Of a stretch of DNA of 64,000 nt, positions 27,408-44,954 are shown one piece after another. Origin of the DNA: Escherichia coli (GTDB taxonomy: Bacteria > Pseudomonadota > Gammaproteobacteria > Enterobacterales > Enterobacteriaceae); the NCBI RefSeq assembly GCF_013315695.1, contig NZ_CP054353.1. The stretch is one strand, 5' to 3'. Below the pieces are notes generated by a model, which saw nothing but the letters and a program-made list of their open reading frames with translations, searched no databases and was not told the origin of the DNA. Numbering within the stretch: the first letter of the stretch is position 1; every line of letters begins with the position of its first letter. The position numbers and the translations under genes were made by a program.

Positions 27408-28460
27408 TCACCCCCACTCCCGCATCCGCTGATGCAGCGTCAGTGACGGCTTCTCGGCAAACAGTTGCTGATAATCCGTAGCAAATTGCCCAAGATGCCA
27501 GAATCCCCACTGCATGGCGGCGTCTTTTACCGTCATACTTTGCGACCACGGGCTTATCAGTTCGCGGCGCACGGCGTTCAGGCGAATGCGTTTCAGCCAC
27601 GCGTTTGGGCCAATGCCTAAAATAGCGTGAAAAGCGTTTTGTAGCGTGCGGCGGCTGACATGTAGTTGATTACACAAGTCCAGCACCGTCACCGGTTCGG
27701 ACATGTTTTCCAGCACATATTCACGGGCGCGGGAAAGCAATCGACGGTAACTCTGATGACTGATGCTTTCCGCCGTCACCATTGGCTGCGCTTCTTCCAG
27801 CATCGCCCCCATCGCCATTAGCAAGTTATCCCCCAGCACTTTTCGCACTGCAGGCTGATGGAGATTTTCCGGGTTCTCGCAAAACGTCGCCAGCGCCTGT
27901 TGGACAAAGCCCCACAGAGCGGCTTTATGCTGCTCTTTCACTTCCAGCGCCGACTGGCTACGCAGCATATGTAATACCCGATCCGGATTATGCAAAAAGT
28001 TAGCCTGACGAGTGATGACATCTTCAGAAAGCACTACGCCCAGGATCGTGTAATCGTCCGGCGTACTTAATTCAAACTCGGTTCCACCCGGGCGCGTCGC
28101 AATTTCTGCGCTTCCCAGACATTGCGAACCGATAAATCCCTGCTCACCGCGCGTCGCCGGAATGCCAAACCAGAACGAGTTCGGCCAGACCAGGCACGAC
28201 TGACGCAGCGCCAGACCGGTGTATTCACGAAAAACCTGAATATCATCGAGTAGAATTTCCGTAAATTCACCATGAAACTTGCCCGGATGCAGCTGATCGT
28301 AAATCTGCTGCCAGGCGGTAATCGTCAAAGCATGTTCATAGACATCCGTTGTCTGTCGTTGATGAACATTATCCACTTCGACCTTCGGCGTGAGCTTCAG
28401 GTTTTCGGGTAAGGGTTCATGATAAAGATGGTGCAAATTGGCTGTACGGGTCTTTTTCAT
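27408..28460 (-). CDS. eutR: AraC-family transcriptional activator of the eut operon
   Basis: 350-aa ORF with C-terminal AraC HTH; last gene of eut operon. Confidence 0.93.
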
Positions 28461-28505
28461 GATGTTAATGCCGGGTGTTGTAGGACACCCGGCACCTCCG
28501 ACAGG

Positions 28506-29012
28506 TTAATGGGGCTTGAGACGGTAACGACTACTGCGTTTACGTAACGTCCCGGCAGAAAAGAGCTGTTCGAGCGCATTTCTGGCTTTTTCCAGCGGCC
28601 AGCCAAAGTGGGCAGCCACTTCTCCTGCCGTCATTCCCTGACGTACTGATGTTAACAGCGCCAACAACTCGTCAGCAGATTCCGCGTCGATAACTGGCGC
28701 GTCGGGTTCCTTTACGGGTTGCTTCGGCTGGCGGTTAAAGCCAGTAACCAGCCACTGGGTGTCATCGTCTGGCCGACCGATCTCCTTACGGCTGATGACA
28801 CGCCCGGTACGCATCGCGGCAGCACAACCTGCGTCCAGCGCCGCACGACACGCCGCCAGATCGCCTTCCACCACCAGCGTTAGGCGACCAGGGTCAAGCA
28901 CTTCATGGCTGAGCAGACGAACGTTAGCTGCTTTGAGCATGGCATCCGCTGCATCTATCGCGGCGACCATGCCGTCAACTTCCAGCAATCCCAGTGCATT
29001 GATCATCGGCAA
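28506..29012 (-). CDS. eutK: Microcompartment shell protein EutK (BMC domain + C-terminal HTH)
   Basis: 168-aa ORF with N-terminal BMC domain (INALGLLEVDGMVAAIDAADAMLKAANV). Confidence 0.9.
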   Translation of the reverse strand: MPMINALGLLEVDGMVAAIDAADAMLKAANVRLLSHEVLDPGRLTLVVEGDLAACRAALDAGCAAAMRTGRVISRKEIGRPDDDTQWLVTGFNRQPKQPVKEPDAPVIDAESADELLALLTSVRQGMTAGEVAAHFGWPLEKARNALEQLFSAGTLRKRSSRYRLKPH

Positions 29013-29018
29013 CCTCCG

Positions 29019-29678
29019 TTACGCACGCTGGATTGGATTACGCGCGATTTCCAGCACTGCATCGGTAAAGGCGTTACAGGCTGCTTTACACGCGGCCTGG
29101 CTACCGGTTAAAAATGCTGCCGAGTAGTTGGTTTCAGACGGTGGCGGGACATAGGTCACCAGCTGCACGTCGGCAGATTTCAACGCTGCATCAATGCCGT
29201 AGGTCGCTTCCAGCGGCGGTGCCACCAGATACGCCATCGGATCGCCAAGCGTGATCCCGGCGGTTGATGAGAGATAAGAACCGGTACGCGAAACGACATG
29301 TGCCAGGAAGGCTGTATTTTCTGCGTCATTAGCCCACTGGAAAGCAGCGCCATTTTCAATATGCGCAACCATCGCATCCAGACCAGCACGCACTTCCGCC
29401 GGGTTTGGCCCACCCAGCATAATCAGCACTTCACCGGCAGTCGGTGACGGGCCGTGTGCGGCTCCCGCATACAGCGAGCGGCCATACACCACTTCCACCA
29501 TCGCCTGCTTGGTCGCTTCGTCAGCCGCAATGTAGGTGACGTCATCTGAATCAGCAGAAATCAGCCCGAGGCTACGAATATGCGGCGGCAATTTCAGTTC
29601 ACGTGCAAATTCGGCGTTAACGGAGGCAATCACCCGCATGGCGGTTACCGACGGTCGAATCAAATCTAAAGCTGGCAT
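29019..29678 (-). CDS. eutL: Microcompartment shell protein EutL (tandem-BMC)
   Basis: 219-aa ORF. Confidence 0.92.
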
Positions 29679-29687
29679 GATGCCTCC

Positions 29688-30575
29688 TTATCGGGTCATG
29701 TTGATGCCGGATGCTTTCTGCTCCAGCATACGTTTCGCCAAATCCACAATGACGGCTGCGGCTTCAACCGGCGGCGTGCCGCCCTGGTGAATGTTAGAGA
29801 TACAGGTGCGATCGGCCTCAACGGTGGTCGCCATACGCGGCGAGTAAACGGCGTAGCAGGAGAGGCTTTCTGACTGCCCCAACCCCGGACGTTCGCCCAC
29901 CAGCAGGATCACCACTTTCGCACCGAGGATCTCACCGATCTGATCTTCAATCTTCACGCGACCATAACGAACAAAGAATGGCGTACCAACTTTCAGCCCG
30001 GCCTGTTTCAGGCCCGCCATCAGCGGCGGCAGGATCTCTTCGTAGTTCACGGTGATCGCATCAGTTGACAGGCCATCAGAAATAACGACCTGCACGTCCG
30101 GATTAGCAACACACTGTGCTTTCAGCGCTTCAACAGCTTCTGCACACAGGCGGCGGCCCATATCCGGGCGAGTCAGGTAGAGATTTTTGTCGCTGATTTC
30201 GGAGCGGACTTCCAGCAAGCCCTGCGCTTTCACCCACTCTTCCGGCACTTCTTTCAGTACAGTATCTTTCGAACGAGAGTGATCGGCCAGGAAACGCAGC
30301 AACGCCTGGGTACGCGGACGCGGACCGGCACGACCGGTACAAACGCGGGCCACGGTGCTGCGACGCAGTTCTGTTAATACGTCTGCGCGATGCGGGTTTT
30401 CAACACCAATCCACGCTTTTGCTTCCGCAGAGCCTAAATCCAGCGCGCAGCTTTCCGAGGTCACCGGTGCCGCACAGGTGGTGGTGGCGCACTTTGCTTC
30501 TGACGGCGCGGGGGCCGCTTGTCCCATTGACGCCATCACGCTGCGTACAATTTCTTCAATCTGTTTTTGATCCAT
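29688..30575 (-). CDS. eutC: Ethanolamine ammonia-lyase small subunit
   Basis: 295-aa ORF; follows eutB. Confidence 0.95.
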
Positions 30576-30595
30576 GATGTGTTATCTCCGCGTCA

Positions 30596-31957
30596 TCAGA
30601 AGAACAGTGACGGATCGCCCGCCCGTTTGGTCAGGCGACCGTTTGCCATAATGCCCATGCTTTCCAGCCAGCGTTCAAACTCCGGTGACGGGCGCAGGTT
30701 GAGTAACTGACGCACAGTGGCAGTGTCGTGGAATGCGGTGGTCTGATAGTTGAGCATGATGTCATCACCCAGCGGCATCCCCATGATGTAGTTGCAGCCT
30801 GCGGTGGCGAGCAGGATCATCAGGTTTTCGTTGAGGTTCTGGTCAGCGTCAGCGTGGTTGGTGTAGCAGCAGTCACAGCCCATAGAGATGCCGCTCAGCT
30901 TGCCCATAAAGTGATCTTCTAAGCCCGCGCGGATAATCTGGCGGTCGTTGTAGAGATACTCCGGCCCAATAAAACCGACCACGGTGTTGACGATAAACGG
31001 ATCGTAATGACGCGCCAGCCCATAGTTACGCGCTTCCATCGTCACCTGGTCAGCGCCGAAGTTAGCGCCAGCAGACAGCGCCGAACCTTGTCCGGTTTCG
31101 AAGTAGAGGCAGTTTTCCCCAGCGATACGGTTAAACTCTGCACCCACTGCGCGCGCTTCGTCGAGCATCGCCAGCTCCACGCCAAACTCTTTCAGCCCTT
31201 TTTCGCTGCCGCAAATACTCTGGAAAATCAGCCCGCCCGGTGCGCCGCGACGAATCGCTTCGATCTGGGTGGTGACGTGCGCCAGTACGCAGCCCTGAGT
31301 TGGGATGTTGAATTTGTCGATCACGCCATAGATGGTATCCAACACGCGGCTTAAGTTTTCCACGTCGTCCGTCACCGGGTTAACGCCGATCACCGCATCG
31401 CCCACCCCGAAGGAAAGCCCTTCGTAGATTTGCGCGGCGATACTTTGCACATCGTCACGGGTATCGTTTGGCTGCAAGCGGGCGCTAAAGGTGCCCGGAA
31501 TACCGATGGTGGTATTGGCCTTTTTGATCACCGGCATTTTCTTCGCGCCGTAGATCAGGTCCGCGTTAGAACTGATCTTCGCCACCGCCGCGACCACTTC
31601 CGAGGTCAGCCCTTTGCGGGTAAAGGCAATGTCGTCAACGCTGGTTTCGTCGCTCAGGACGTATTCACGCAGTTCGCTGATGCTCCAGTTTTTAATCTGG
31701 TTGTAGGCCGTTTCGTTAACATCGTCCTGAATCAGCCGCGTCACGCAGTCATCTTCATAGGCAATCACCGGATTATTGCGGATGTCCGCTACGGTCATTT
31801 CCGACAACACCTGCTTTGCCGCCACGCGCTCCTGTGAACTTGCCGCTGCAACGCCTGCCAGCACATCCCCCGAACGCAGTTCGTTGGCTTTAGCCAGCAC
31901 CTCTTTTACATCCTTAAACTGATATACATTGCCGAACAATGTGGTCTTTAGTTTCAT
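30596..31957 (-). CDS. eutB: Ethanolamine ammonia-lyase large subunit
   Basis: 453-aa ORF. Confidence 0.96.
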   Translation of the reverse strand: MKLKTTLFGNVYQFKDVKEVLAKANELRSGDVLAGVAAASSQERVAAKQVLSEMTVADIRNNPVIAYEDDCVTRLIQDDVNETAYNQIKNWSISELREYVLSDETSVDDIAFTRKGLTSEVVAAVAKISSNADLIYGAKKMPVIKKANTTIGIPGTFSARLQPNDTRDDVQSIAAQIYEGLSFGVGDAVIGVNPVTDDVENLSRVLDTIYGVIDKFNIPTQGCVLAHVTTQIEAIRRGAPGGLIFQSICGSEKGLKEFGVELAMLDEARAVGAEFNRIAGENCLYFETGQGSALSAGANFGADQVTMEARNYGLARHYDPFIVNTVVGFIGPEYLYNDRQIIRAGLEDHFMGKLSGISMGCDCCYTNHADADQNLNENLMILLATAGCNYIMGMPLGDDIMLNYQTTAFHDTATVRQLLNLRPSPEFERWLESMGIMANGRLTKRAGDPSLFF

Positions 31958-31968
31958 AAGTCGTTCCC

Positions 31969-33372
31969 TCAGGAAGGAAATGCGAGTGATTTCACCGTCA
32001 CCGGCACAACCGATCCGCCAAAAAGAGGCGTACCAATGTCGATATAGTCCCCCGCGCGGACAATCACTTCGTCAATGACTGCCAACGGGAGTTGTTGTAG
32101 CTGTGGGCGCAACAACATGCCCAGAGCTTTACCAAAGTCCTGCCCGGCCACCACCAGCAGGGGATGCGGATTCGGAAAACGCGCGACGAAATCGACCAAC
32201 GCGTTGATGACCGTCAGTACCGCGGCGTAACGCACAGGCAGCGAGGCGGGAAGCGCCAGCACGTACGCGTCAGTTTTAGGATCAAGATCCAGCTGAATCA
32301 GCGCCTGTTGCCAGGCACTCACCAGATCCGTTTCATCAATCGGGATCGCCACCGGCAAATTGCGCAGCGGCAGTTGTACGCCCTCCAGCCAGATTGTGCT
32401 GCCAGAGAGCGAAAGGGTATGAGCTCCCGCGCCAATCACCGTGGCGCGCACGGTTTGCGCCGGAAACTGCACGTTCATCTCACGCAGGCGCGGATGGTCA
32501 TGCAGCGCCGTTGCCAGAAGCGGGCCAATATCGGCAAAACAGAACGGGTCGGCGGGCTGGTGGCGATAACATTCGCCAACGCCGCCAGAAAGCGTAATGA
32601 TTTCGGGCGTAACACCTACGGGCAGCAAACCGGTTTGCATCAATGCCTGCGCGAGCGGCGAAAGCGTTCCGTCAATCACTTCGACAATCAGCTCTGCCAT
32701 CCGCCGGGTAACCTGCACCAGCTGCGCGCCAGTCAGCGAACGGGCGTCGGTGCCTGCACCGAAGCACTCATCCACAATCATCTGCCCCGGTTTATGAGCG
32801 TAAACCACGCGCCCCTGGCTGTCGGTTTCCAGCAGGCGACCGCCGACATTGAGGCAGGCGGTGCCGCTGATTTTTCCGGCATCGAACAGGGCGTAGTTCG
32901 CGGTGCCACCGCCGATGTCGATATTCAGTACCCGACACAGCCGTTGTTCAGAAAGGGTTTGCGCCCCGGCACCGTGACCGGCGATCACGGATTCGAGATG
33001 CGGCCCGGCGCTGGCGACGACAAAATCGCCCAGCGACTGGGAGAGCGTCATCACCGCCGGGCGAGCGTTGCGGGTTTTCGCGCTTTCACCGGTGATAATG
33101 ATGGCACCAGAATCAACGCTTTCCGGCGCAATGCCCGCAGCCTGATATTGCTCGAGGATTAAGGTTTTCAGTTCCGCTTCTTTTAAACCACCCTGTTTAT
33201 CGACAGGGGTAAAGAACACCGGGCTTTGCCAGCTAATTTCGCGTTTGATGAATTCGTAGCGCGGCACCTGCGACACCGCCGCACGGTTAACCAGCTCCAG
33301 GTGGGAGAAGATCACCTGGGTGGTGGTGGTGCCGATATCGATACCGACGCTCAGTAGCTGGCGAGTGTTCAC
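31969..33372 (-). CDS. eutA: Ethanolamine ammonia-lyase reactivase
   Basis: 467-aa ORF; only 11 bp separate its stop from the eutB start (no prophage between them). Confidence 0.95.
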   Translation of the reverse strand: MNTRQLLSVGIDIGTTTTQVIFSHLELVNRAAVSQVPRYEFIKREISWQSPVFFTPVDKQGGLKEAELKTLILEQYQAAGIAPESVDSGAIIITGESAKTRNARPAVMTLSQSLGDFVVASAGPHLESVIAGHGAGAQTLSEQRLCRVLNIDIGGGTANYALFDAGKISGTACLNVGGRLLETDSQGRVVYAHKPGQMIVDECFGAGTDARSLTGAQLVQVTRRMAELIVEVIDGTLSPLAQALMQTGLLPVGVTPEIITLSGGVGECYRHQPADPFCFADIGPLLATALHDHPRLREMNVQFPAQTVRATVIGAGAHTLSLSGSTIWLEGVQLPLRNLPVAIPIDETDLVSAWQQALIQLDLDPKTDAYVLALPASLPVRYAAVLTVINALVDFVARFPNPHPLLVVAGQDFGKALGMLLRPQLQQLPLAVIDEVIVRAGDYIDIGTPLFGGSVVPVTVKSLAFPS

Positions 33373-34595
33373 GATTGCGCCTCCGCTTCGGTTTTAGCCG
33401 TGGTCGCGTCTTCTTTTGGCACCAGCATCATCGCCACGCCAATCGCCGTTACGCCGCCGATCAACTTGCCGACAATCATCGGGAAGATCATGGCGTTCAT
33501 GTTGGCAGCGGCGAAGCCTAAGTGGTCGCCCAGGGCGAAAGCAGCGGAAACGGCGAAGGCACAGTTGATGACTTTGCCGCGGGTATCCATCTGCTTCATC
33601 ATGCCAAACATCGGGATGTTGTTGGCAAGCGTTGCCACCATGCCGGCTGCCGCGATGTTGTTCATATTCAGCACCTTACCGACGCTCATCAGCGGTTTTT
33701 CAAACCAGCGAGTCAGCAGCAGCACCATCGGATACGCCCCTAACAGAACGCAGGAGATCGAGCCGATAACTTCAATGGCGCGCATCACTTCACCGGGTTT
33801 ATCGCCAGGGGCCATAAAGATAGGATCAAGGCCCGGGATCAGTTCCCAGCCAAGGAGGAATTTCACTACCGCAGCGGCAAGACCGAGGGTGATCAATGCA
33901 ACGAGGAATTTGGCGAAGATCTGGAAGCCGTTGATCATTTTTTCCGGGATGAATTTCAGCCCCAGCGCCACCAGCACCGCAACGATAAGTACCGGGATCA
34001 TGTTCATCAGGATCAGCGCAAAGGTGAATTCCACTGGCTGACCGTTGATCTGCACACCGGAGTACATAGCCACCAGACCACCGGCAATACAGCCAATCGG
34101 AATGGTCACAATGCCCGCCAGCACGCCGAGCGCCAGATAACGACGGTCAGAAGGTTCGATAATGCCGAGCGCCACCGGAATGGAAAACACAATCGTTGGC
34201 CCCATCATCGACCCGAGAATTAATCCAGAGTATAGCCACGCTGCTACGTCGCCGCCCGCCAACTCTTTGGCGAGGAAGAAGCCGCCCATATCGCACGCCA
34301 GCAGTGTTCCGGCGAACATTGACGGGTTTGCGCCGAGCATTTCGTAAACCGGGATAATCACCGGTCCGAGTACGTGGGCCAGAACAGGTGCCAGCGCGGT
34401 CATACCAACCATCGCCAGGCCCAAAGCGCCCATTGCCATAAAGCCTTCTTCGAACTGACCGCCGGATCCTTCGATACTTTTACCGAACTTACCGAGGAAA
34501 CGAGCAGAACCGCCGAACTGCGACAGGATCCTGTCTACGGCAGCTATCAGCATAAAGAACATCATGATGTACATGATGATTTCGTTAATTCCCAT
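33369..34595 (-). CDS. eutH: Ethanolamine permease
   Basis: 408-aa multi-TM ORF; 4-bp overlap with eutA. Confidence 0.95.
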   Translation of the reverse strand: MGINEIIMYIMMFFMLIAAVDRILSQFGGSARFLGKFGKSIEGSGGQFEEGFMAMGALGLAMVGMTALAPVLAHVLGPVIIPVYEMLGANPSMFAGTLLACDMGGFFLAKELAGGDVAAWLYSGLILGSMMGPTIVFSIPVALGIIEPSDRRYLALGVLAGIVTIPIGCIAGGLVAMYSGVQINGQPVEFTFALILMNMIPVLIVAVLVALGLKFIPEKMINGFQIFAKFLVALITLGLAAAVVKFLLGWELIPGLDPIFMAPGDKPGEVMRAIEVIGSISCVLLGAYPMVLLLTRWFEKPLMSVGKVLNMNNIAAAGMVATLANNIPMFGMMKQMDTRGKVINCAFAVSAAFALGDHLGFAAANMNAMIFPMIVGKLIGGVTAIGVAMMLVPKEDATTAKTEAEAQS

Positions 34596-34626
34596 CGCCT
34601 TTACTCCCTGTTAGTTGTTATTTATT

Positions 34627-34709
34627 GGCGGATGCGGCGTGAACGTCTTATCCGCCCTACATGTGCAATCCCGAAGGCCGGATAAGACGCGGCAAGCGTC
34701 GCATCCGGC
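34627..34709. repeat. BIME (two inverted REP elements) between eutH and eutG
   Basis: GGCGGATGCGGCGTGAACGTCTTATCCGCCCTAC ... GGCCGGATAAGACGCGGCAAGCGTCGCATCCGGC, canonical REP palindromes in opposite orientation. Confidence 0.6.
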
Positions 34710-34711
34710 AT

Positions 34712-35899
34712 TTATTGCGCCGCTGCGTACAGACCGACAATCTGCTCCAGGCTGGCGGTACGCGGGTTACTGCGCAGACAAACATCTTCCAGCGCGGCCT
34801 GCGCCCATGCACCGTAATGCGCAGATGTCGCACCAATATCGCCCAGTCGTTTACCAATCCCGACTTCCGCAATCAGCTCACTTACCGCGTTAATAGCGTC
34901 ACGATCGTCGGATTTTTTAGTTCTCAGCGCCCGGCCAATCTGACTAAACCGATCACGACAAACCATCCGGTTAAATTCCATCACCGTTGGCAGCAACATA
35001 GCGTTCGCCAGACCGTGCGGAATATGCAGCGCCGCCCCTGGCTGATGCGCCATCGCGTGGCACAACCCAAGTCCGGCACTGGAAAACGCCATTCCCGCCA
35101 TACATGAAGCCAGCAACATGCTCTCGCGGGCGGCAAGGTCGTGACCGTAGCCCACCGCTTTCGGCAGCGATTTGCCAATCATCGCAATGGCACCAATCGC
35201 CAGACTGTCGGTAAACGGTGTGGCGTTCAGCGCGCTGTACGCTTCAATGGCATGGGTTAACGCATCAATGCCAGTCATCGCCGTGACATGCGACGGCACA
35301 CCTTCGGTCAATGCGGCGTCGAGGATCGCCACATCCGGCATCAGCGAGGCATGGGCTAACACCTGTTTGCGCCCGCTTACCGCATCGATAATCACCGTCA
35401 CGTTAGTCGTTTCAGAGCCGGTTCCGGCGGTCGTTGGAATGGCAATCAACGGCAGGCGCGGTTGCAGAACGCTGGTTTCTGACATTTCTGCCAGCGTGCT
35501 ATCCGGGTTCGTCACCAGCAACGCCACGGCTTTCGCCGCATCCAGCACCGAGCCGCCGCCAAACGCGATCACCCCGTCACAACCTGATTCACGCAACTGC
35601 GCCACGGCTGCACACACGTCGGTGATGCATGGTTCGCCCACCGGACATGGCCAGAGCGTCATGGCGATACCTTTAACGGCCAGGCTACGCGTCAGCCCGG
35701 CGGTCATCCCGGTCTGATGCAAAAAGCTGTCTGCCATCACGAACAGATGTTTCAGCCCACGCGTTTGCGCTTGCTGCCCACAACTGCTCACCGCGCCCGG
35801 ACCGCAAAGCGTCACCGGTGGAACGCTAAATGTTTTTACCCGTTGCAGATTCAGGGTATCGAACGCCTGAAAGAGCGCGGTCTGCAATTCATTTTGCAT
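34712..35899 (-). CDS. eutG: Iron-containing alcohol dehydrogenase EutG
   Basis: 395-aa ORF. Confidence 0.95.
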   Translation of the reverse strand: MQNELQTALFQAFDTLNLQRVKTFSVPPVTLCGPGAVSSCGQQAQTRGLKHLFVMADSFLHQTGMTAGLTRSLAVKGIAMTLWPCPVGEPCITDVCAAVAQLRESGCDGVIAFGGGSVLDAAKAVALLVTNPDSTLAEMSETSVLQPRLPLIAIPTTAGTGSETTNVTVIIDAVSGRKQVLAHASLMPDVAILDAALTEGVPSHVTAMTGIDALTHAIEAYSALNATPFTDSLAIGAIAMIGKSLPKAVGYGHDLAARESMLLASCMAGMAFSSAGLGLCHAMAHQPGAALHIPHGLANAMLLPTVMEFNRMVCRDRFSQIGRALRTKKSDDRDAINAVSELIAEVGIGKRLGDIGATSAHYGAWAQAALEDVCLRSNPRTASLEQIVGLYAAAQ

Positions 35900-36725
35900 A
35901 TAGCCCCTCCGCTTTCTCTCGCCCGCTACTGGCGATCGCCAGCGGGGTCATAAACAAACTGTGCTGCGGTAAATGCACCTGTAACGCCGGGAATTGTTTG
36001 CGAAACAGTTCCGCCACGCCCGGTTGCATACAAGAGCCGCCCGCCAGCCATAAATCCGTAATGCCCTGCCCTTCAATATGCCGGGCGACGATGTCCGCCA
36101 TTTTTTCGTACACCGGTTTCACCGCGGGCCAAATCTCTTCACCGTGACCGCGCTTGTACTGCTCTGCCTCTTCCAGCGAAATACGACGATTTCCGGCGAG
36201 AGTCAGAGAGATGTGATGTCCGCCGGTCGCTTCATCCGCCGAGTACGTCACCTTGCCCTTTTTCACGATGGCAATACCAGTAGTGCCACCGCCGATATCC
36301 ACTACACCGGCGTTGTCCAGTTGCAGCAGATCCGCGACTGCGGTTGGCTCATCCAGTACATGGCTCACTTCCAGTCCGGCAGATTCCAGCACGTTGATGG
36401 AAATACGCGGGTCCGTACCTGGAGGAAAAGAGGTCGCCGCATGGCTAAAACGGCGACCGAATTGCTGCTCGAGGGTGTCGAGATGGCGACGAACAATGGT
36501 GACCGCACCGAAGAAATCCCAGACGATGCCGTCGCGGACCACATCGGCCCAGTCGAGGCATACCGCCACCGGCAGACCGTCGCGGTCGACAACCATCGAC
36601 ACCACATCGCAGGTGCCCAGATCCACCCCCAGCCACAGCGGAGATTCCGTCGCGGCGGGCGTCTGGTTACACAGCGTTGCCGCCGTTTGCAGACGTGGGG
36701 TGAGCCATTGTTCATCGTGCGCCAT
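35889..36725 (-). CDS. eutJ: Hsp70/actin-fold chaperone-like protein EutJ
   Basis: 278-aa ORF; overlaps eutG start. Confidence 0.94.
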   Translation of the reverse strand: MAHDEQWLTPRLQTAATLCNQTPAATESPLWLGVDLGTCDVVSMVVDRDGLPVAVCLDWADVVRDGIVWDFFGAVTIVRRHLDTLEQQFGRRFSHAATSFPPGTDPRISINVLESAGLEVSHVLDEPTAVADLLQLDNAGVVDIGGGTTGIAIVKKGKVTYSADEATGGHHISLTLAGNRRISLEEAEQYKRGHGEEIWPAVKPVYEKMADIVARHIEGQGITDLWLAGGSCMQPGVAELFRKQFPALQVHLPQHSLFMTPLAIASSGREKAEGLYAK

Positions 36726-36735
36726 CGGTTACTCC

Positions 36736-38139
36736 TTAAACAATGCGAAACGCATCGACTAATACACAGCGACGCAGACGGACAAACGTCCGCGCGCTGG
36801 TTACCCCTTCACCGGTTGGCGTGGTGATGGTCATGGTGGTCCAGCCTTCCCCGCCCAGCCCCAGCCCGGCAATGCACGGTCCGTTCTTAACGAAAATGCT
36901 GGTATCAATGGCATTCGCCATCTGGTTCATGTTCTCGATATTGCGCGAGTGCATTGCCGCCGTGTGGTGGCAACCGCCTTCCAGTTTCACCGCCAGCGCA
37001 ATGGCATCCGCCACGTTGGCGACGCGCACGACGGGCAGCACCGGCATCATCAGTTCAGTCACAGCAAACGGATGTTCTGCGGTGGTTTCTACAAACAGCA
37101 GTCGCGTTTGTTCCGGAACTTTAAGGCCGATTGCCGCCGCGATTTTCGCCGCATCGCGACCAACCCAGTCACGGCTGACGGTGCCTTTTCCGCGCTCGTC
37201 GATATTTTTCAGCAACACCGGTTGCAGCTGCTGCGCCTGCTCTGCGGTCAGTTTCACCGCGTGCTGGCCTTCCATCAGACGCATCAGTTCATCGGCTACG
37301 CTATCCACAACAATCAGTACCTTTTCGTCGGCACAAATGATGTTGTTATCGAAAGACGCGCCTTTGACGATGGACTGAGCAGCACGGGCGAGGTCGGCGG
37401 TTTCATCCACCACTACCGGCGGGTTGCCAGCGCCTGCGGCAATCAGACGTTTATTGGTGTGTTTACGCGCCGCTTCTACTACCGCTTCGCCGCCGGTCAC
37501 CACCAGCAGGCCGATGCCCGGAAACTTGAACAAACGTTGAGCGGTTTCGATATCCGGATTTGCCACAGTAACCAGTAAGTTTTCCGGCCCGCCTGCGGCA
37601 ACAATCGCCTGGTTGAGCAGCGTGATCGCCCGCTGGGAGACTTTTTTCGCCGCCGGATGCGGGGCAAAAATGACGCTGTTGCCCGCGGCAATCAGGCTGA
37701 TGGCGTTGTTAATTACGGTTGCCGCCGGGTTAGTGGAAGGCGTCACCGAAGCCACTACGCCCCAGGGCGCGTTTTCAATTAAAGTCAGGCCGTTGTCACC
37801 GGTCAGCACTTGCGGAGAGAGGCACTCAACGCCTGGTGTGCCGCGCGCCTGAGCGACGTTTTTGGCAAATTTATCTTCAACGCGCCCCATGCCGGTTTCA
37901 CTGACGGCAAGTTCCGCTAAATCTCTGGCGTGTTTTTCGCCTGCTTCACGAATGGCAGCAATGGCTAACTGGCGCATTGCCACGCTTTTTAACCCTTGCT
38001 GGGCGACTTTGGCTGCCGCAACGGCGTCATCCAGGGACGCGAAAACGCCCATCTCATGAACGGCGGCGGGCGGCGTGTCACTGCTTTGCATTTTCAGCAG
38101 TACCGCTTTCACCACCTGTTCAATATCCTGTTGATTCAT
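36736..38139 (-). CDS. eutE: CoA-acylating acetaldehyde dehydrogenase EutE
   Basis: 467-aa aldehyde dehydrogenase-family ORF. Confidence 0.95.
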   Translation of the reverse strand: MNQQDIEQVVKAVLLKMQSSDTPPAAVHEMGVFASLDDAVAAAKVAQQGLKSVAMRQLAIAAIREAGEKHARDLAELAVSETGMGRVEDKFAKNVAQARGTPGVECLSPQVLTGDNGLTLIENAPWGVVASVTPSTNPAATVINNAISLIAAGNSVIFAPHPAAKKVSQRAITLLNQAIVAAGGPENLLVTVANPDIETAQRLFKFPGIGLLVVTGGEAVVEAARKHTNKRLIAAGAGNPPVVVDETADLARAAQSIVKGASFDNNIICADEKVLIVVDSVADELMRLMEGQHAVKLTAEQAQQLQPVLLKNIDERGKGTVSRDWVGRDAAKIAAAIGLKVPEQTRLLFVETTAEHPFAVTELMMPVLPVVRVANVADAIALAVKLEGGCHHTAAMHSRNIENMNQMANAIDTSIFVKNGPCIAGLGLGGEGWTTMTITTPTGEGVTSARTFVRLRRCVLVDAFRIV

Positions 38140-38150
38140 GATGTTCTGCC

Positions 38151-38438
38151 TTATTTGTGGAAAATGACCTGACCGCCAGACACCACCTCATCGACGATGC
38201 CAATCACGCACAGATCGACCGGTGACGTTTCGCTTTTATGCGCCTGGCGGGCGGAACTGCCACTCACCAGCAACACCCACTCCCCGGTTCCCGCGCCAAT
38301 ATTGTCGATGGCGACGGCGCATTGCCCGTCAGGATTACCTTGTGGATCAATCATTTCCACCATCAGCAATTTGTCATGCGCCAGTCCGTGATGGCGTACG
38401 GTACAAACAATTTGTCCAGTGACGACTGCCAGTTTCAT
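38151..38438 (-). CDS. eutN: Microcompartment vertex protein EutN
   Basis: 95-aa ORF MKLAVVTGQIVCTVRHHGL... Confidence 0.93.
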   Translation of the reverse strand: MKLAVVTGQIVCTVRHHGLAHDKLLMVEMIDPQGNPDGQCAVAIDNIGAGTGEWVLLVSGSSARQAHKSETSPVDLCVIGIVDEVVSGGQVIFHK

Positions 38439-38544
38439 ACCCGCCTCCGTGGCGTATTTCAGGTAAAAGCTCCCCCTACCCTCCGCAGAAGGTAAAATGA
38501 TAAAGGAGAGAGCGTGACGCCCGAATCGACGTCACACAGGGTGA

Positions 38545-38838
38545 TTACAGGTTGCTGCTATCGCCTTTCAGGCCGATCGGGAACACTTCTTCCAGGTCGC
38601 CGTGCGGACGCGGGATAACGTGTACAGATACCAGCTCGCCGATACGCTGTGCCGCTGCGGCACCTGCATCGGTCGCGGCTTTACAGGCTGCAACATCACC
38701 ACGAACCATGGCAGTACACAGGCCGCCGCCAATCTGCTTAACACCAACCAGCTTGACGCGCGCAGCTTTAACCATCGCGTCAGAAGCCTCAATCAGTGCA
38801 ACCAGGCCCCGGGTTTCGATCATTCCTAATGCTTCCAT
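38545..38838 (-). CDS. eutM: Major microcompartment shell protein EutM (BMC-H)
   Basis: 97-aa product from ATG at 38838 ([26 protein letters not shown]...) with GAGGAAA RBS; ORF track start at 38880 is an extension. Confidence 0.93.
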
Positions 38839-38876
38839 TGTGCTTTCCTCTTTATCAGGGTCCAGAACGGGACCGT

Positions 38877-39893
38877 TCATTCAACCAGTGTTTGTAAACT
38901 GCTTTCGCGGTTCACTTCTGTCTGACGCGGCACAGCTGCCACCAGCGCCAGCTCGATAATTTCCTGCACGCTACAACCACGAGAGAGATCGTGCATCGGC
39001 GCGGCAAGTCCTTGTATCAATGGCCCGACGGCACGATATCCGCCGAGTCGTTGTGCGATTTTGTAGCCAATATTTCCGGCTTCCAGCGACGGAAAAACCA
39101 TCACATTGGCCTTGCCCTGTAGCGGGCTGGCAGGCGCTTTTTGCGCCGCCACTTCCGGCACGAAGGCGGCGTCAAACTGCAACTCGCCATCGACTACCAG
39201 CTTTGGTGCGCGCTCACGGACGATTTCTGTCGCCTGCTGGACGTTGGCAACGCAGGGGTGACGGGCACTACCATTGCTGGAAAACGACAGCATCGCCACG
39301 CGCGGTTCTTCTCCGGTGATGGCCTGCCAGGTTTCGGCGCTGGCAAGCGCGATATCCGCCAACTGCGCCGCCGTCGGCTGTGGCACCACGCTGCAATCGG
39401 CAAAACCCAACGCCGGACCGCTGTACTGTGGCAGCATCAGGAAAATGGATGAGAGCGTTTTACAGCCTGGCTGCAAGCCGATAATGCGTAATCCGGCACG
39501 CAGCACATTCGCCGTGGAAGAGAGGTTGCCCGCGATACAGACATCCGCTTTACCGGCGCTGACCATTGCTGCGGCGAACATCAGCGGGTCGGTAAGTTTT
39601 TCCAGCGCATCCGGCGGCGTTTTTTCGCCCGCGCGGGCCAGCCAGCGATGAGCAAATTCTTCCCGCATTGCGAGGTTGCCATGCGGATCAATCACCTGTA
39701 GCCCGTCCATCGCCACGCCATGACTGAGCGCAAACTGACGAAGTTCAAACGGATTGGCGACCAGAATGGGCGTTGCCAGACCTTGTTGATGTAAATATTG
39801 CGCAGCTTTCAGCACACGTTGATCTAACGCATCCGGAAAAACTACTCTGGCGGGCGCTCGCAACGCCAGTTCACGACAACGTTCAATAATCAT
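38877..39893 (-). CDS. eutD: Phosphotransacetylase EutD
   Basis: 338-aa ORF. Confidence 0.95.
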
Positions 39894-40693
39894 TGCGTTT
39901 CCCCCAGTCGTTGTTGGATCTGCTTCACCGTTAGCGGCTGCTTCGTTACGCTCAGGATCATCATCACGTAGACCGTGCTGGAAAGGCGGTTCAGCGCCTG
40001 CAAAATGTCCGGGCGTAATACTTCAAAGCTGCGGGTGATAAAGACCTGCGCCGCTACGGTTTCGGTTTCCCGCACTTTGGTGCGTAGCAGATTTAGCAAC
40101 GCCGCATCGCGCCCGTGGCTGGCTTCCGGCACCAGATGATCGTGGTCGAGATAACGCAGCGGCTGGTGAGAAAGCCGATGCAGATCTTCGTCAGAAAGCC
40201 CGACAATCGCTTGGCAGGCCAGCGGTTCCCCCAGCGCATCGGCACGCATAATGTTGCCAAGACGCGAACGGATATCCGCCAGCCACGGCTGCCACGGTTC
40301 CGCCAGTTCAATTTGCAGCCACACTGCCAGCGCAATGGTGCTGTCGAGAACAGCGCGAAAAGCCAGGCGCGGATCGCTTTTGGCAACCATTTTTTCCGCC
40401 GACAGGTGAGTCAGCGTGTCCGGCTTTTTCGCCACCGGCTGGCGGCACAGTTCGCAGCACGCCTGCGGATGTTCATCACTACTGGTCAGCCCGTGAACGG
40501 GCTGCGGCTGCTGCTGTTCATCGTCAACAAACAGGCGGCCCTGCTCGTCAATAAACTTGATGCGCAGATGGCGGCTTTCCAGTAACTCCCGGGCAGAGGG
40601 CGTCAGGCGACTGTCCGCAGGGAGATGGATCTCTGCGCCTTCGCTAAGCGTATGATTCGCTCTTAGCCATGCTTCGGTGATGAAATCTTTCAT
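39890..40693 (-). CDS. eutT: Cob(I)alamin adenosyltransferase EutT
   Basis: 267-aa ORF; 4-bp overlaps with eutD and eutQ. Confidence 0.93.
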
Positions 40694-41391
40694 AGGGATT
40701 GCCAGTTAGCCGGCCAGGCGACATACAGGAATTTCACACTGGATGTCGTACCAAATTCGATGCTGGAGCCTTTCGGGATAAACATCACATCGCCTGCTTT
40801 GGCGATCATGGTTTCGCCTTCGTGGCGAACGTGCAGTTCCCCTTCCAGTACCATATCGATTTCGTCATAGTTGAGGGTCCACGGGAAGAAGGCGTTCTCC
40901 CACTGCATAAAACCGGCGGCCATGCTGCTGCCGTCGTCTCCGGTGACCAGATCCGTTAATCCGACGCAGTGTGGCTGTGCGCCGTCGAAACGACCAAACT
41001 TGACGCTGCTGCCATCAATCACTTTGATGCCGCCTTTGCCGGTCACCGATTTGAAGCTCGGCTGCATTGCACCCTGCTCCAGTGACTGTTTTTCCTTCAT
41101 CACTTTTTCCATCAGCTGCGCGACCAGGCTTTCGGTAAACTGGCCTTCCGGTAGCTGGGCGATGATGGTTTCGCGGATGCGCTGGCTTTCGGTTTTATCG
41201 GCTGGCACGCTGGCGGGAACGGACGTCGTTACCGCAGTCGATTCATCACATTCGGTGATGGTAAAACCCAACAGATCAGCCACTTCACGAGCTTCCGGGG
41301 TAATAATGCTGGCGCGCAGAACCACGGACATTGCCAGTTCGCCGCGCGCGTGTGCTTCACGAATATCATTCGCTGTGATGAGTTTTTTCAC
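40690..41391 (-). CDS. eutQ: Cupin-fold protein EutQ
   Basis: 233-aa ORF. Confidence 0.92.
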   Translation of the reverse strand: MKKLITANDIREAHARGELAMSVVLRASIITPEAREVADLLGFTITECDESTAVTTSVPASVPADKTESQRIRETIIAQLPEGQFTESLVAQLMEKVMKEKQSLEQGAMQPSFKSVTGKGGIKVIDGSSVKFGRFDGAQPHCVGLTDLVTGDDGSSMAAGFMQWENAFFPWTLNYDEIDMVLEGELHVRHEGETMIAKAGDVMFIPKGSSIEFGTTSSVKFLYVAWPANWQSL

Positions 41392-41845
41392 CTGCTTCCT
41401 CCTGTTTGGTGAGAGATGCCAGATAATCCACCAGTTGCTGCACGCTTTGCGGGTCGTGGCTGTTTAGCTCGAAAATCGGCTCTTCGAAGCCCGTCTCAAG
41501 CAATAACTTTCGCGTTGCGGCGACGTCAGCATCTGGCATGTCCGTTTTACTGATGACGGCGATTTGCCGTTTGCTGACGCCAATATCCAGCAACCCGGCA
41601 GGCAACCGACTTTCCGGGTCATTCGCGCCGTGGACATAGATCAGCATGTCCACATCCTGTAGCGTGGTAATTAAGGCGTGATACCAGCGGGGATGGCTAA
41701 AATATTCACCCGGCGTATCAATATCGCCCTTATCATTAAATTCCACGGCCTGTGTTTTTCTTGCGAGGGTATAATTCCCCTGCAACGCATTAAATAACGT
41801 TGTTTTTCCTGCCCCGACGGTACCCACAAACGCAATTCGTTTCAT
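41366..41845 (-). CDS. eutP: P-loop NTPase EutP
   Basis: 159-aa ORF with Walker A GTVGAGKTT; its GAGG RBS is retained 3' of the IS1 insertion point. Confidence 0.92.
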   Translation of the reverse strand: MKRIAFVGTVGAGKTTLFNALQGNYTLARKTQAVEFNDKGDIDTPGEYFSHPRWYHALITTLQDVDMLIYVHGANDPESRLPAGLLDIGVSKRQIAVISKTDMPDADVAATRKLLLETGFEEPIFELNSHDPQSVQQLVDYLASLTKQEEAGEKTHHSE

Positions 41846-41874
41846 GAATGCCTCGTATTAACTTTTGGTCATTT

Positions 41875-41883
41875 CACAAAGCG
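41875..41883. repeat. IS1 target-site duplication, left copy (CACAAAGCG)
   Basis: Identical 9-mer directly abuts both ends of the IS1 element. Confidence 0.85.
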
Positions 41884-41898
41884 GGTAATGACTCCAAC

Positions 41899-42402
41899 TT
41901 ATTGATAGTGTTTTATGTTCAGATAATGCCCGATGACTTTGTCATGCAGCTCCACCGATTTTGAGAACGACAGCGACTTCCGTCCCAGCCGTGCCAGGTG
42001 CTGCCTCAGATTCAGGTTATGCCGCTCAATTCGCTGCGTATATCGCTTGCTGATTACGTGCAGCTTTCCCTTCAGGCGGGATTCATACAGCGGCCAGCCA
42101 TCCGTCATCCATATCACCACGTCAAAGGGTGACAGCAGGCTCATAAGACGCCCCAGCGTCGCCATAGTGCGTTCACCGAATACGTGCGCAACAACCGTCT
42201 TCCGGAGCCTGTCATACGCGTAAAACAGCCAGCGCTGGCGCGATTTAGCCCCGACATAGCCCCACTGTTCGTCCATTTCCGCGCAGACGATGACGTCACT
42301 GCCCGGCTGTATGCGCGAGGTTACCGACTGCGGCCTGAGTTTTTTAAGTGACGTAAAATCGTGTTGAGGCCAACGCCCATAATGCGGGCTGTTGCCCGGC
42401 AT
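41899..42402 (-). CDS. insB: IS1 InsB (transposase C-terminal frame, expressed as InsAB' by -1 frameshift)
   Basis: 167-aa ORF matching IS1 InsB (…[21 protein letters not shown]…). Confidence 0.93.
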
Positions 42403-42596
42403 CCAACGCCATTCATGGCCATATCAATGATTTTCTGGTGCGTACCGGGTTGAGAAGCGGTGTAAGTGAACTGCAGTTGCCATGTTTTACGGCAGTGAGA
42501 GCAGAGATAGCGCTGATGTCCGGCGGTGCTTTTGCCGTTACGCACCACCCCGTCAGTAGCTGAACAGGAGGGACAGCTGATAGAAACAGAAGCCAC
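42321..42596 (-). CDS. insA: IS1 InsA (transposition inhibitor / N-terminal transposase frame)
   Basis: 91-aa [26 protein letters not shown]…; the A6C slippery run lies in the insA/insB overlap. Confidence 0.93.
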
Positions 42597-42646
42597 TGGA
42601 GCACCTCAAAAACACCATCATACACTAAATCAGTAAGTTGGCAGCA

Positions 42647-42970
42647 TCACCCACAAAGCGTATAATTTAATAAGCGTCCTAAACCACTGACGGTTTGTGA
42701 TAACGCTTCTTCTACTGCGCCCACCGAGCCATAAATCACCAGCGCGCCGCTAAAACGGTCGAGAAAACCGATATGCACATCGGCGGCTTTCAACGCTAAA
42801 TCACCGGCGATCATCGCCGTTTCTCCGGGAGTTAGCGTCATAATGCCAATTGCGCCCGCATCCGGAACGCCGATTTTCTTCGCCAGTTCCTCGCCGGGAT
42901 GCGCGATGAGATGCGCCAGTGTGACCTGTTTACCGGGCACAAATTCCTGAATGATGCGTTCTTTATCCAT
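42647..42970 (-). CDS. eutS: Microcompartment shell protein EutS with C-terminus rewritten by the IS1 insertion
   Basis: Product from ATG at 42970 ([21 protein letters not shown]…, permuted BMC domain); reading frame enters the IS1 inverted repeat and stops at 42647-42649. Confidence 0.88.
42652..42660. repeat. IS1 target-site duplication, right copy (CACAAAGCG)
   Basis: Identical 9-mer directly abuts both ends of the IS1 element. Confidence 0.85.
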
Positions 42971-43335
42971 GAGTCGCCGCCTGTGAAAAACTTTCGTGTA
43001 TCGTGACAATTTTTCGTCAGAGTAAATAACAAAATTCGGCAAGCGCGTTTAAAAGGTGAGGTAGATCACGAACAATGGGGAAAATACTTTATGCAAAGAA
43101 AATCACATACATCACATGAATACAAACAGGAGTCGATAAGTTTTATTTATCATATGTTACCCACCCCATTTTTAATGGTTCTTCGCATAACCCTATGTAG
43201 CATTTATAATAATTATCAGAATACATATCCCATGAACTGTTGTATTCTGAAAATATTATTATACTCACCCCATTTAAGGTACAACATAAACGATGAGTTT
43301 ATTCAGGGCATAAAAGAAATGGATGGATACCTGTA
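42971..43335. promoter_or_regulatory. Divergent AT-rich control region: eut operon promoter (upstream of eutS) and promoter of the glycosyltransferase gene
   Basis: 365-bp visibly AT-rich intergenic region between divergent eutS and the GT gene; the main eut promoter is known to lie upstream of eutS; individual sites not resolved. Confidence 0.4.
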
Positions 43336-44406: not shown

Positions 44407-44409
44407 ATA

Positions 44410-44445
44410 AGGCAGTAAAAAGGCATTTTTTGGTACTGCCTTTTC
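44410..44445 (+). terminator. Terminator-like hairpin after the glycosyltransferase gene
   Basis: GGCAGTA…TACTGCC stem with inner A5/T5 pairing, followed by TTTTC. Confidence 0.4.
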
Positions 44446-44954
44446 ACCGAATACTATGGTTATCGTACTTGTCGTGGCGATGGGAAAAGTCGTTACAGTT
44501 TTCATTCCCTTGCATAGCCGTGACGCCCCCTTTTCACACACAAAGAAAATGGTGGATGTTTTATACTCCTCCACCACCAAAGGCAGTCAAGATGGATAAG
44601 TTAATGCTCGCCCATGCCCCCAATTTATGGGCCATGGAAAAACGTCTTGCAAACAGCTGTGTACGGGAATAATAGCAGTGCGGGTATGAGCAAGACATTA
44701 TTTTATCATGACGGGCAAAATTGCAGCCGGACCTAGGGCGGTGCATTGCAGATGCTGAAACTGGACCCGCTATGTTTATTATCTCCAGAATTTAATGCGT
44801 CTGGAAGTACCTACAACTGCTGCGCCTTTTATTGATGGCATGCATACGCTTTCTGGTGTTGGCGACGTTACATTCATGATGCCTGGCTACAACTTAAGGG
44901 CTCGCCTCAGCAATTCTGAGTGGATGTACAGCGGCGTATACAGAAGTGGGTCAG

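What the first reader, a model, noticed from the sequence alone, without database searches (positions are those of the whole stretch)
31957..31969. Uninterrupted eutB-eutA junction (no CPZ-55 prophage)
The eutA stop and eutB start are separated by only 11 bp. In K-12 MG1655 the cryptic prophage CPZ-55 occupies this position. This strain therefore has the ancestral contiguous operon at this point, and its only operon-splitting element is the IS1 further upstream, an independent mobile-element hit on the same operon.
Basis: partly seen in the sequence, partly recalled or inferred. Interest (0 to 1): 0.3.

Follow-up and report, generated by a model that had tools for sequence, protein, structure and literature searches.

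The report
Uninterrupted eutA–eutB junction, empty prophage site
This E. coli strain has the normal, unbroken join between two ethanolamine-utilisation genes where lab strain K-12 carries a small cryptic prophage. That is the usual state, but the join lies in the middle of an unexplained, unusually invariant 200-base stretch.

Summary

- **Junction.** On the minus strand, the eutA stop (31969-31971) and the eutB ATG (31955-31957) are 11 nt apart.
- **K-12.** MG1655 carries the 6.79-kb CPZ-55 element at this point. It is flanked by an 8-bp repeat, TCAGGAAG, which corresponds to window 31969-31976, the last 8 nt of eutA.
- **How common.** The unbroken junction is the usual state: 4964 of 5426 complete E. 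coli genomes have it, and 408 have the K-12-type junction. All 43 outgroup loci examined are contiguous, with spacers of 9-16 nt.
- **IS1.** The only element that splits the operon is a 768-bp IS1 (41884-42651, 9-bp duplication CACAAAGCG) in the 3' end of eutS. Only two other genomes share this exact insertion.

All of this is already published or routine.

One new, unexplained thing came up. The junction lies at the centre of a ~200-nt block (31857-32055) that is almost invariant, wobble positions included, across eight enterobacterial genera. The flanks diverge 13-20%. In the block, 48 of 60 wobble sites are invariant, against 189 of 859 elsewhere in eutA and eutB (p = 9e-20). Other eut locus types do not show it. 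An mRNA element controlling eutB translation is the most plausible cause, but this is unproven.

The parts
31958..31968 (-). 11-nt eutA-eutB intercistronic spacer (GGGAACGACTT on the minus strand)
   Evidence: The length is the same (11 nt) in 35 other enterobacterial species representatives.
31969..33372 (-). eutA (ethanolamine ammonia-lyase reactivase, 467 aa); stop codon TGA at 31971-31969
   Evidence: NF007991, 1073 bits; annotation of the near-identical strain MSB1_4I.
30596..31957 (-). eutB (ethanolamine ammonia-lyase large subunit, 453 aa)
   Evidence: NF011649, 663 bits.
31969..31976 (.). Unoccupied attachment-site core TCAGGAAG of CPZ-55/IntZ-type integrative elements. It is the last 8 nt of eutA, including the stop codon.
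   Evidence: Present once here. In K-12 it is duplicated on either side of the 6.79-kb CPZ-55 (PMC6379469).
31965..31970 (-). Shine-Dalgarno-like GAGGGA for eutB, overlapping the eutA stop codon (U-GAGGGA)
   Evidence: Read from the sequence. It is predicted to pair with UUUCCUU in a 7-bp hairpin whose loop-closing end includes the stop codon. UCCUGAGG is retained in Photorhabdus, Serratia fonticola, Pluralibacter gergoviae and Pseudomonas citronellolis.
31857..32055 (-). ~200-nt block (-98 to +100 relative to the eutB ATG) that is almost invariant at the nucleotide level among EutR-type eut operons of eight genera
   Evidence: 48 of 60 wobble sites are invariant, against 189 of 859 elsewhere in eutA and eutB (Fisher p = 9e-20). 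The block diverges about ten times less than its flanks.
41884..42651 (-). IS1 (768 bp, IS1A-type; transposase reads in the same direction as the eut operon)
   Evidence: Absent from the otherwise 99.97%-identical strain MS 21-1.
41875..41883 (.). Left copy of the 9-bp IS1 target-site duplication CACAAAGCG (right copy at 42652-42660)
42647..42970 (-). eutS interrupted near its 3' end. EutS is 111 aa normally and 107 aa here (...NYTLCG*, ending inside the IS1 terminal repeat). The displaced 3' remnant of eutS is 41858-41883.
   Evidence: translation compared with K-12 and MS 21-1; PGAP annotates a 324-nt eutS.
27408..41845 (-). The rest of the operon, eutPQTDMNEJGHABCLKR. All genes are full length and separated from the eutS promoter by the IS1.
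   Evidence: ORF lengths; no pseudogene flags in MSB1_4I, which differs by 1 mismatch in 40.4 kb; gene order as in K-12.

Best explanation
Positions 31957-31969 are the native, unbroken junction between eutA and eutB in a 17-gene EutR-type ethanolamine-utilisation operon. The two genes are 11 nt apart, and the ribosome-binding sequence of eutB (GAGGGA) overlaps the eutA stop codon. A ribosome finishing eutA therefore ends on the eutB initiation region, which suggests translational coupling (inferred, not shown).

The last 8 nt of eutA (TCAGGAAG on the plus strand) are the crossover core used by IntZ-type tyrosine-integrase elements such as CPZ-55. In this strain the site is empty, as in about 91% of E. 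coli and in every outgroup examined. This is the ancestral arrangement.

The operon is interrupted elsewhere. An IS1 inserted 26 nt before the end of eutS, 9.9 kb upstream. It separates the EutR-dependent promoter and eutS from the 16 downstream genes. Because IS1 insertions are classically polar, the strain is predicted to express eut poorly (inferred).

The junction also lies at the centre of a ~200-nt block under strong constraint at synonymous sites. Its most likely cause is an mRNA-level element that governs eutB translation. The constraint is shown; the mechanism is inferred.
For: - **Gene identities and spacing:**
- **K-12 comparison and the 8-bp core:**, in agreement with PMC6379469.
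- **Effect of the prophage in K-12:** eutB is not induced in BW25113, and scarless removal of the prophage was used to rebuild the operon (PMC7617246; PMC11334477).
- **Population frequencies:** 4964 of 5426 genomes are contiguous. 408 of 5426 have the K-12-type eutB-intZ junction. This matches the published 8%.
- **Outgroups:** all are contiguous, with spacers of 9-16 nt.
- **Site reuse:** an 11.1-kb IntZ-type element with different cargo occupies the same site in strain PCP06102, and the site is called a 'hot spot' in PMC6652756.
- **IS1:** 768 bp, inverted repeats, 9-bp duplication, with the empty site in MS 21-1.
- **Block:**
- **Sense-strand hairpins:** z = -2.0 and -2.95, while the antisense strand is not significant. 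There is one compensatory pair, and most variable sites fall in loops or keep pairing through G-U.
Against: - Nothing contradicts the structural description of the junction.
- Translational coupling and IS1 polarity were not measured.
- For the block, the RNA-structure reading is weak. The whole 190-nt region folds no better than shuffled sequence (z = -0.14).
- 43 of 57 predicted pairs never vary, so covariation cannot be assessed.
- Variable wobble sites are only marginally less paired than invariant ones (p = 0.07).
- The helices are not kept in other eut locus types.
- The outgroup sample was selected by a pattern that requires the EutB N-terminal amino acids. This could bias positions 0 to +56.
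Confidence: 0.9

Rival explanations
1. The clean junction is secondary. An IntZ-type element was once integrated in this lineage and later excised precisely, restoring the site without a scar.
For: Site-specific excision restores the attachment site exactly. Several K-12 derivatives (ER3413, EC600 transconjugant, DH1) have the contiguous junction although MG1655 carries CPZ-55. A laboratory W3110 is described as eut+ (PMC11334477).
Against: The contiguous state holds in 91.5% of E. coli and in all outgroups. The closest relative examined (MS 21-1, 99.97% identical) is also contiguous. Parsimony therefore favours 'never occupied'. Some of the K-12 cases may be engineered deletions.
Confidence: 0.06
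2. The ~200-nt invariant block reflects a more recent common ancestry of this segment, through inter-genus recombination or gene conversion, possibly promoted by elements that integrate at its centre. It does not reflect function.
For: - The edges are sharp, at about -98 and +100.
- The block is centred on the integration core.
- A pair of variants (+38A, +41C) is shared by E. whittamii and Pseudocitrobacter, which does not fit the species relationships.
- Block divergence does not correlate with flank divergence (Spearman 0.17).
Against: - Position +65 shows all four bases and +32 and +50 are widely polymorphic, while neighbouring wobble sites never change. This is site-specific constraint, not a recent sweep.
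- No phage, plasmid or viral contig carries a copy of the block.
- CPZ-55 shares only 8 bp plus weak similarity with the site.
- Fixation of a converted tract in every species of eight genera without selection is implausible.
Confidence: 0.15
3. The block is constrained by a second reading of the DNA. Candidates are an overlapping or antisense small ORF, a programmed -1 frameshift that fuses EutA to EutB, or an antisense RNA.
For: - The eutB frame is open for 38 codons upstream of its ATG.
- A 49-aa antisense ORF spans 31929-32078.
- An antisense promoter was mapped in the eutB-eutC spacer in K-12 (PMC2912661).
- Two weak terminator-like hairpins lie on the antisense strand at 31871-31898.
Against: - No alternative ORF matches the block's limits.
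- There is no canonical slippery heptamer, and no start codon in the upstream eutB frame (and reading of the sequence).
- The antisense strand folds no better than shuffled sequence.
- No promoter-like site was found in the region.
Confidence: 0.08

Closest known systems
Prophage-free eut operon of most E. coli (e.g. Nissle 1917, UPEC, EHEC) and of Salmonella enterica
   Same: Same 17-gene order, the same 11-nt eutA-eutB spacer, and an identical junction sequence.
   Different: This strain carries an IS1 in the 3' end of eutS and a rare glycosyltransferase islet upstream of eutS. Its eutA-eutB allele is at least 99% identical to only 8 of 5424 records.
E. coli K-12 MG1655 eut operon with cryptic prophage CPZ-55 (b2442-b2450, intZ-yffS)
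   Same: The flanking eutA and eutB sequences and the 8-bp core TCAGGAAG are the same.
   Different: K-12 has 6.79 kb inserted, transcribed opposite to eut, with the core duplicated. The window has a single core and no insert. K-12 has no IS1 in eutS.
Integrative elements that target the 3' end of a conserved gene (e.g. e14 and phage 21 in icd; islands in tRNA and tmRNA genes)
   Same: The crossover core lies at the very 3' end of a gene, so the coding sequence is preserved. The target is an exceptionally conserved sequence.
   Different: The target here is a protein-gene junction inside an operon, so integration uncouples the downstream genes. The shared identity is only 8 bp, plus weak similarity on one arm.
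Translationally coupled gene pairs with the downstream Shine-Dalgarno sequence held in a hairpin that the upstream ribosome opens
   Same: The spacer is short, the ribosome-binding sequence overlaps the upstream stop codon, and a 7-bp hairpin is predicted across both.
   Different: Coupling was not measured. The hairpin is weak (-4.6 kcal/mol, z = -1.06). A frozen region of ~200 nt is far longer than such elements normally need.

Membership tests
EutR-type 17-gene eut operon (eutSPQTDMNEJGHABCLKR) of Enterobacteriaceae | eutA, eutB and eutC adjacent and identified by curated models | tested here: met
   NCBIfam hits above the curated cutoffs for EutA, EutB, EutC, EutH and EutP.
EutR-type 17-gene eut operon (eutSPQTDMNEJGHABCLKR) of Enterobacteriaceae | Full gene order ending in eutR, located between hemF and maeB | tested here: met
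   ORF map; annotation of MSB1_4I, 1 mismatch in 40.4 kb; same order as K-12.
EutR-type 17-gene eut operon (eutSPQTDMNEJGHABCLKR) of Enterobacteriaceae | Operon functional (induced by ethanolamine plus B12; growth on ethanolamine) | not testable with these tools
   The IS1 in eutS predicts polarity on the 16 downstream genes. No expression data are available.
Unoccupied attachment site of CPZ-55/IntZ-type integrative elements | A single copy of the core TCAGGAAG, with flanks equal to the left flank of K-12 attL plus the right flank of K-12 attR | tested here: met
   Three-way alignment; published core (PMC6379469).
Unoccupied attachment site of CPZ-55/IntZ-type integrative elements | No integrase or element genes between eutA and eutB | tested here: met
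   Only 11 nt lie between the genes.
Unoccupied attachment site of CPZ-55/IntZ-type integrative elements | Site actually used by an integrase (integration observed) | tested here: met
   Occupied in 408 of 5426 genomes by elements with the K-12-type intZ junction, and by an 11.1-kb variant in PCP06102. Integration into this particular strain was not tested.
IS1 insertion | 768-bp element with terminal inverted repeats and an IS1-family transposase | tested here: met
   Length and inverted repeats; NF033558 IS1 transposase, 146 bits against a cutoff of 100; PGAP annotates IS1A with a programmed frameshift.
IS1 insertion | 9-bp target-site duplication and a known empty site | tested here: met
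   CACAAAGCG on both sides; MS 21-1 has the uninterrupted sequence.
Conserved cis-regulatory mRNA structure | Nucleotide conservation beyond what the coding sequence requires | tested here: met
   48 of 60 wobble sites invariant against 189 of 859 elsewhere, p = 9e-20; about tenfold lower divergence than the flanks.
Conserved cis-regulatory mRNA structure | Base pairs supported by compensatory changes | tested here: inconclusive
   1 compensatory pair and 43 of 57 pairs that never vary. The helices are not kept in other locus types.
Conserved cis-regulatory mRNA structure | Folding more stable than shuffled sequence | tested here: inconclusive
   The whole block gives z = -0.14. The sub-domains -98..-25 and +58..+102 give z = -2.0 and -2.95, but their limits were chosen after the alignment fold.
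Conserved cis-regulatory mRNA structure | Match to a described RNA family | tested here: not met
   No relevant Rfam hit at E <= 10 in 31500-32400.

The most novel reading that the evidence does not exclude
The eutA-eutB junction is the centre of an undescribed ~200-nt cis-acting mRNA element, specific to EutR-type eut operons. Sense-strand hairpins would span -98..-25, the ribosome-binding site and stop codon, +15..+31 and +58..+102. The element would set EutB synthesis relative to EutA and the rest of the operon. Its near-total invariance across genera would also explain why IntZ-type elements such as CPZ-55 use exactly this point as their attachment site. Integration would then cut the element in two, in addition to separating eutB from the promoter.
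Probability: 0.3. Interest if true: 0.55.

Novelty: already known. Interest (0 to 1): 0.2.

Why it matters
As written, the finding only says that this strain resembles most E. coli and differs from K-12 at a well-documented prophage site. It is useful for annotation and as a reminder that K-12 is the exception, and nothing more.

Two by-products matter somewhat more. First, the strain's eut operon is probably disabled anyway, by an IS1 in eutS, and IS1 has hit the same ~80 nt of eutS independently in other strains. Second, the junction lies in a ~200-nt stretch whose synonymous sites are frozen across Escherichia, Salmonella, Citrobacter, Klebsiella and four other genera. If this is a regulatory mRNA element, it is an overlooked layer of control in a well-studied operon linked to gut colonisation and virulence. 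It would also explain why this spot is a recurrent integration site. Both points can be tested directly with synonymous recoding.

Tried and rejected
- **Rfam scan** of 31500-32400 on both strands at E <= 10: only two chance-level hits, so no known RNA family and no cobalamin riboswitch.
- **Folding of the whole 190-nt region:** z = -0.14 on the sense strand and -1.63 on the antisense strand.
- **Promoter scan:** no sigma-70-like site in 31700-32300. An internal eutB promoter is therefore not supported. This agrees with eutB not being induced in BW25113.
- **Overlapping genes:** ORFs of at least 20 aa and stop-codon maps in all six frames show no ORF that matches the block.
- **Programmed -1 frameshift fusing EutA to EutB:** the eutB frame is open upstream, but there is no slippery heptamer. 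The EutA-EutB fusion proteins in public data are deletions at microhomologies.
- **A copy of the block carried by a mobile element:** the only phage hit is a mislabelled Salmonella chromosomal fragment. The plasmid hits are mis-assigned chromosomes. The only IMG/VR hit is host DNA with a contiguous junction.
- **A motif shared with the eutS promoter region** (possible EutR site): one shared 9-mer, against 0.6 expected by chance.
- **Literature searches** for a known element, internal promoter, sRNA or CsrA site at eutA-eutB found none. CsrA binding is reported on the eutS leader.
- **Covariation test:** uninformative, because the block hardly varies.
- **Within-E. coli identity bands:** the block is at least 99% identical in 5079 of 5423 records, but so is the eutA-side flank (5084 of 5412). 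Only the eutB-side flank is polymorphic (1037 of 5375). The within-species comparison therefore does not discriminate.
Full report
**Observation.** The eut operon is on the minus strand of the window.
- eutB occupies 30596-31957 and eutA 31969-33372. Both score far above the curated NCBIfam cutoffs.
- The eutA stop codon is 31971-31969, the eutB start codon is 31957-31955, and 11 nt (31958-31968) lie between them.

**Comparison with K-12.**
- In MG1655 the RefSeq record annotates 'cryptic prophage CPZ-55' (intZ, yffL-yffS) between eutB and eutA, transcribed opposite to the operon.
- I aligned the window with both K-12 junctions. The window equals the K-12 eutB side up to and including TCAGGAAG, and the K-12 eutA side from TCAGGAAG onward.
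- The K-12 insertion is thus 6.79 kb, flanked by an 8-bp direct repeat that corresponds to window 31969-31976. These are the last 8 nt of eutA, stop codon included.
- EutA, the 11-nt spacer and the eutB ribosome-binding site are all preserved in K-12. The damage there comes from separating eutB from its promoter.
- This core and its position are already published (PMC6379469).
- The functional consequence is published too. eutB is not induced and no microcompartments form in BW25113 (PMC7617246). Scarless removal of the prophage was used to reconstitute an intact operon (PMC11334477).

**How common the empty site is.**
- Of 5426 complete E. coli genomes, 4964 have the contiguous junction. 408 have a K-12-type eutB-intZ junction. 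This agrees with the published 8%.
- The site is reused by related elements. Strain PCP06102 carries an 11.1-kb element with an intZ-family integrase and different cargo at the same place. A UPEC study calls the site a prophage insertion hot spot (PMC6652756).
- For outgroups I scanned one genome per species for the back-translated EutB N-terminus. All 35 loci have eutA ending 11 nt before eutB. They come from Citrobacter, Klebsiella, Salmonella arizonae, Escherichia species, Yokenella, Pluralibacter, Intestinirhabdus and Pseudocitrobacter.
- A Salmonella enterica fragment, deposited as an unverified 'phage' record, shows the same.
- Seven more distant loci have eutA directly upstream, with spacers of 9-16 nt.
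- Contiguity is therefore ancestral.
- The one caveat is that precise excision leaves no trace, and some K-12 derivatives (ER3413, EC600, DH1) also show the clean junction.

**The IS1.**
- The window differs by one mismatch in 40.4 kb from E. coli MSB1_4I. It is 99.97% identical to MS 21-1, except for a 768-bp IS1 at 41884-42651 with a 9-bp duplication, CACAAAGCG.
- The IS1 sits 26 nt before the eutS stop. EutS loses its last five residues (111 aa becomes 107 aa).
- More importantly, the EutR-dependent promoter and eutS are cut off from eutP through eutR.
- All other eut genes are full length, and no other insertion exists relative to MS 21-1 or K-12.
- Only two genomes in the collection share this exact junction.
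- That the insertion is polar, and so disables the operon, follows from the classical behaviour of IS1. It was not tested.

**How the junction probably works.** On the mRNA the sequence reads UUUCCUUCC-UGA-GGGAACGACUU-AUG. The ribosome-binding sequence GAGGGA overlaps the eutA stop codon, and a 7-bp hairpin (UUUCCUU/GAGGGAA) is predicted across both. This is the typical layout of a translationally coupled pair. UCCUGAGG is kept even in distant eut loci. Coupling is inferred, not shown.

**An unexpected result: a frozen block.**
- In all 37 EutR-type sequences, a block from about -98 to +100 relative to the eutB ATG (window 31857-32055) is almost invariant, wobble positions included. Its edges are sharp, and the flanks show a change at nearly every third base.
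- Against the window, taxa whose flanks differ by 13-20% show only 1-3 differences in the 199 nt. The most divergent genera show up to 13. This is roughly a tenfold reduction.
- In a 13-sequence alignment, 48 of 60 wobble sites in the block are invariant, against 189 of 859 in the rest of eutA and eutB (Fisher p = 9e-20). The next-best window has 30 of 60, and the median is 11.
- Over about 12 kb of operon it is the longest and strongest such block. A shorter one lies at the eutB-eutC junction, where an antisense promoter was mapped in K-12 (PMC2912661).
- The freeze is specific to this operon type. In Photorhabdus, S. fonticola, P. citronellolis, Ignatzschineria and P. gergoviae, wobble sites in the same region vary normally (70-75% identity). 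Only about 30 nt around the stop codon and ribosome-binding site stay conserved.
- A recent sweep is unlikely. Position +65 shows all four bases and +32 and +50 are widely polymorphic, while their neighbours never change.
- The CPZ-55 core lies in the 100%-invariant centre. An integrase that must find its site in many hosts would be expected to target such a sequence.

**What the block might be.**
- Consensus folding of the alignment tiles the block with sense-strand hairpins at -98..-25, the ribosome-binding-site hairpin, +15..+31 and +58..+102.
- Folded alone, the two outer domains are more stable than shuffled sequence (z = -2.0 and -2.95). The antisense versions are not.
- Most variable positions lie in predicted loops or keep pairing through G-U. 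One pair is compensatory, G-C to A-U in Yokenella.
- The evidence is not decisive, for these reasons:
  - The block as a whole folds no better than chance.
  - 43 of 57 pairs never vary.
  - The loop preference of variable wobble sites is marginal (p = 0.07).
  - The domain limits were chosen after the fact.
  - The outgroup sample was selected on the EutB N-terminal peptide.
- The following alternatives all gave nothing: known RNA families, an internal promoter, overlapping ORFs, frameshifting, a mobile-element copy of the block, and a shared EutR motif.
- I found no description of this block in the searchable literature.

**Verdict.** The finding as written is correct and ordinary. It is an unoccupied, well-documented attachment site in an otherwise standard operon, plus an IS1 elsewhere. 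It is already known and of low interest. The frozen block around the junction is real and statistically strong, but its function is unexplained. It is the only reason to give this locus more than a minimal score.

Noticed in passing
window 31857-32055: The junction lies in a ~200-nt block that is almost invariant at synonymous sites across eight enterobacterial genera, with about tenfold less divergence than the flanks. Other eut locus types are not frozen in this way. The cause is unknown.
   Followed up: yes
window 30538-30667 (eutB-eutC junction): A second, shorter block of raised nucleotide conservation (mean pairwise identity about 0.95-0.99) lies at the eutB 3' end, the eutC start and its encapsulation-peptide codons. 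A published K-12 antisense promoter (PMC2912661) lies in this spacer.
   Followed up: partly
window 41858-41960 and 42652-42760; loci L047-L050: IS1 has hit eutS repeatedly. There are five independent insertions with different 9-bp duplications. Four fall within the last ~80 nt of eutS (this strain, GF124.3, STO_Bone1B, DAM) and one in the eutS-maeB spacer (strain 503025). About 29 genomes have an IS1 within ~700 bp of the eutP start.
   Followed up: partly
window 43079-44951 (gene 43336-44406, plus strand): A low-GC (35-49%) 1.9-kb islet carrying a family-4 glycosyltransferase lies between eutS and maeB and is absent from K-12. Only 6 of 5426 genomes have it full length, and 84 carry a variant that is 88.8% identical.
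   Followed up: partly
L046 14213-25308 (E. coli PCP06102): The same eutA/eutB site holds an 11.1-kb element with an intZ-family integrase and different cargo (an HNH endonuclease and a 727-aa hypothetical protein). The site therefore serves a family of elements, not only CPZ-55.
   Followed up: partly
proteins P0002, P0004, P0008, P0038, P0039: Public assemblies contain in-frame EutA-EutB fusion ORFs created by deletions at 2-3-residue microhomologies. Shigella carries EutG-EutB fusions. These are signs of eut decay, or assembly artefacts.
   Followed up: partly
L054 (E. coli EA2), equivalent to window 31857-31892: A 36-bp in-frame tandem duplication lies in the eutB 5' region between two copies of GCCAGCAC. 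It falls inside the conserved block (the +58..+102 hairpin domain).
   Followed up: partly
window 31460-32460: This eutA-eutB allele is rare. Only 8 of 5424 records are at least 99% identical, and most E. coli are 97-98% identical. The polymorphism is concentrated on the eutB side.
   Followed up: partly
window 34596-34711 (eutH-eutG spacer): K-12 has about 100 bp more here. An ~85-bp unit is present twice in K-12 and once in the window.
   Followed up: no
L002 25277-26680 (E. coli MS 21-1): The closest IS1-free relative has an internal stop in eutE. Both near-identical strains therefore carry different, independent lesions in the eut operon.
   Followed up: no
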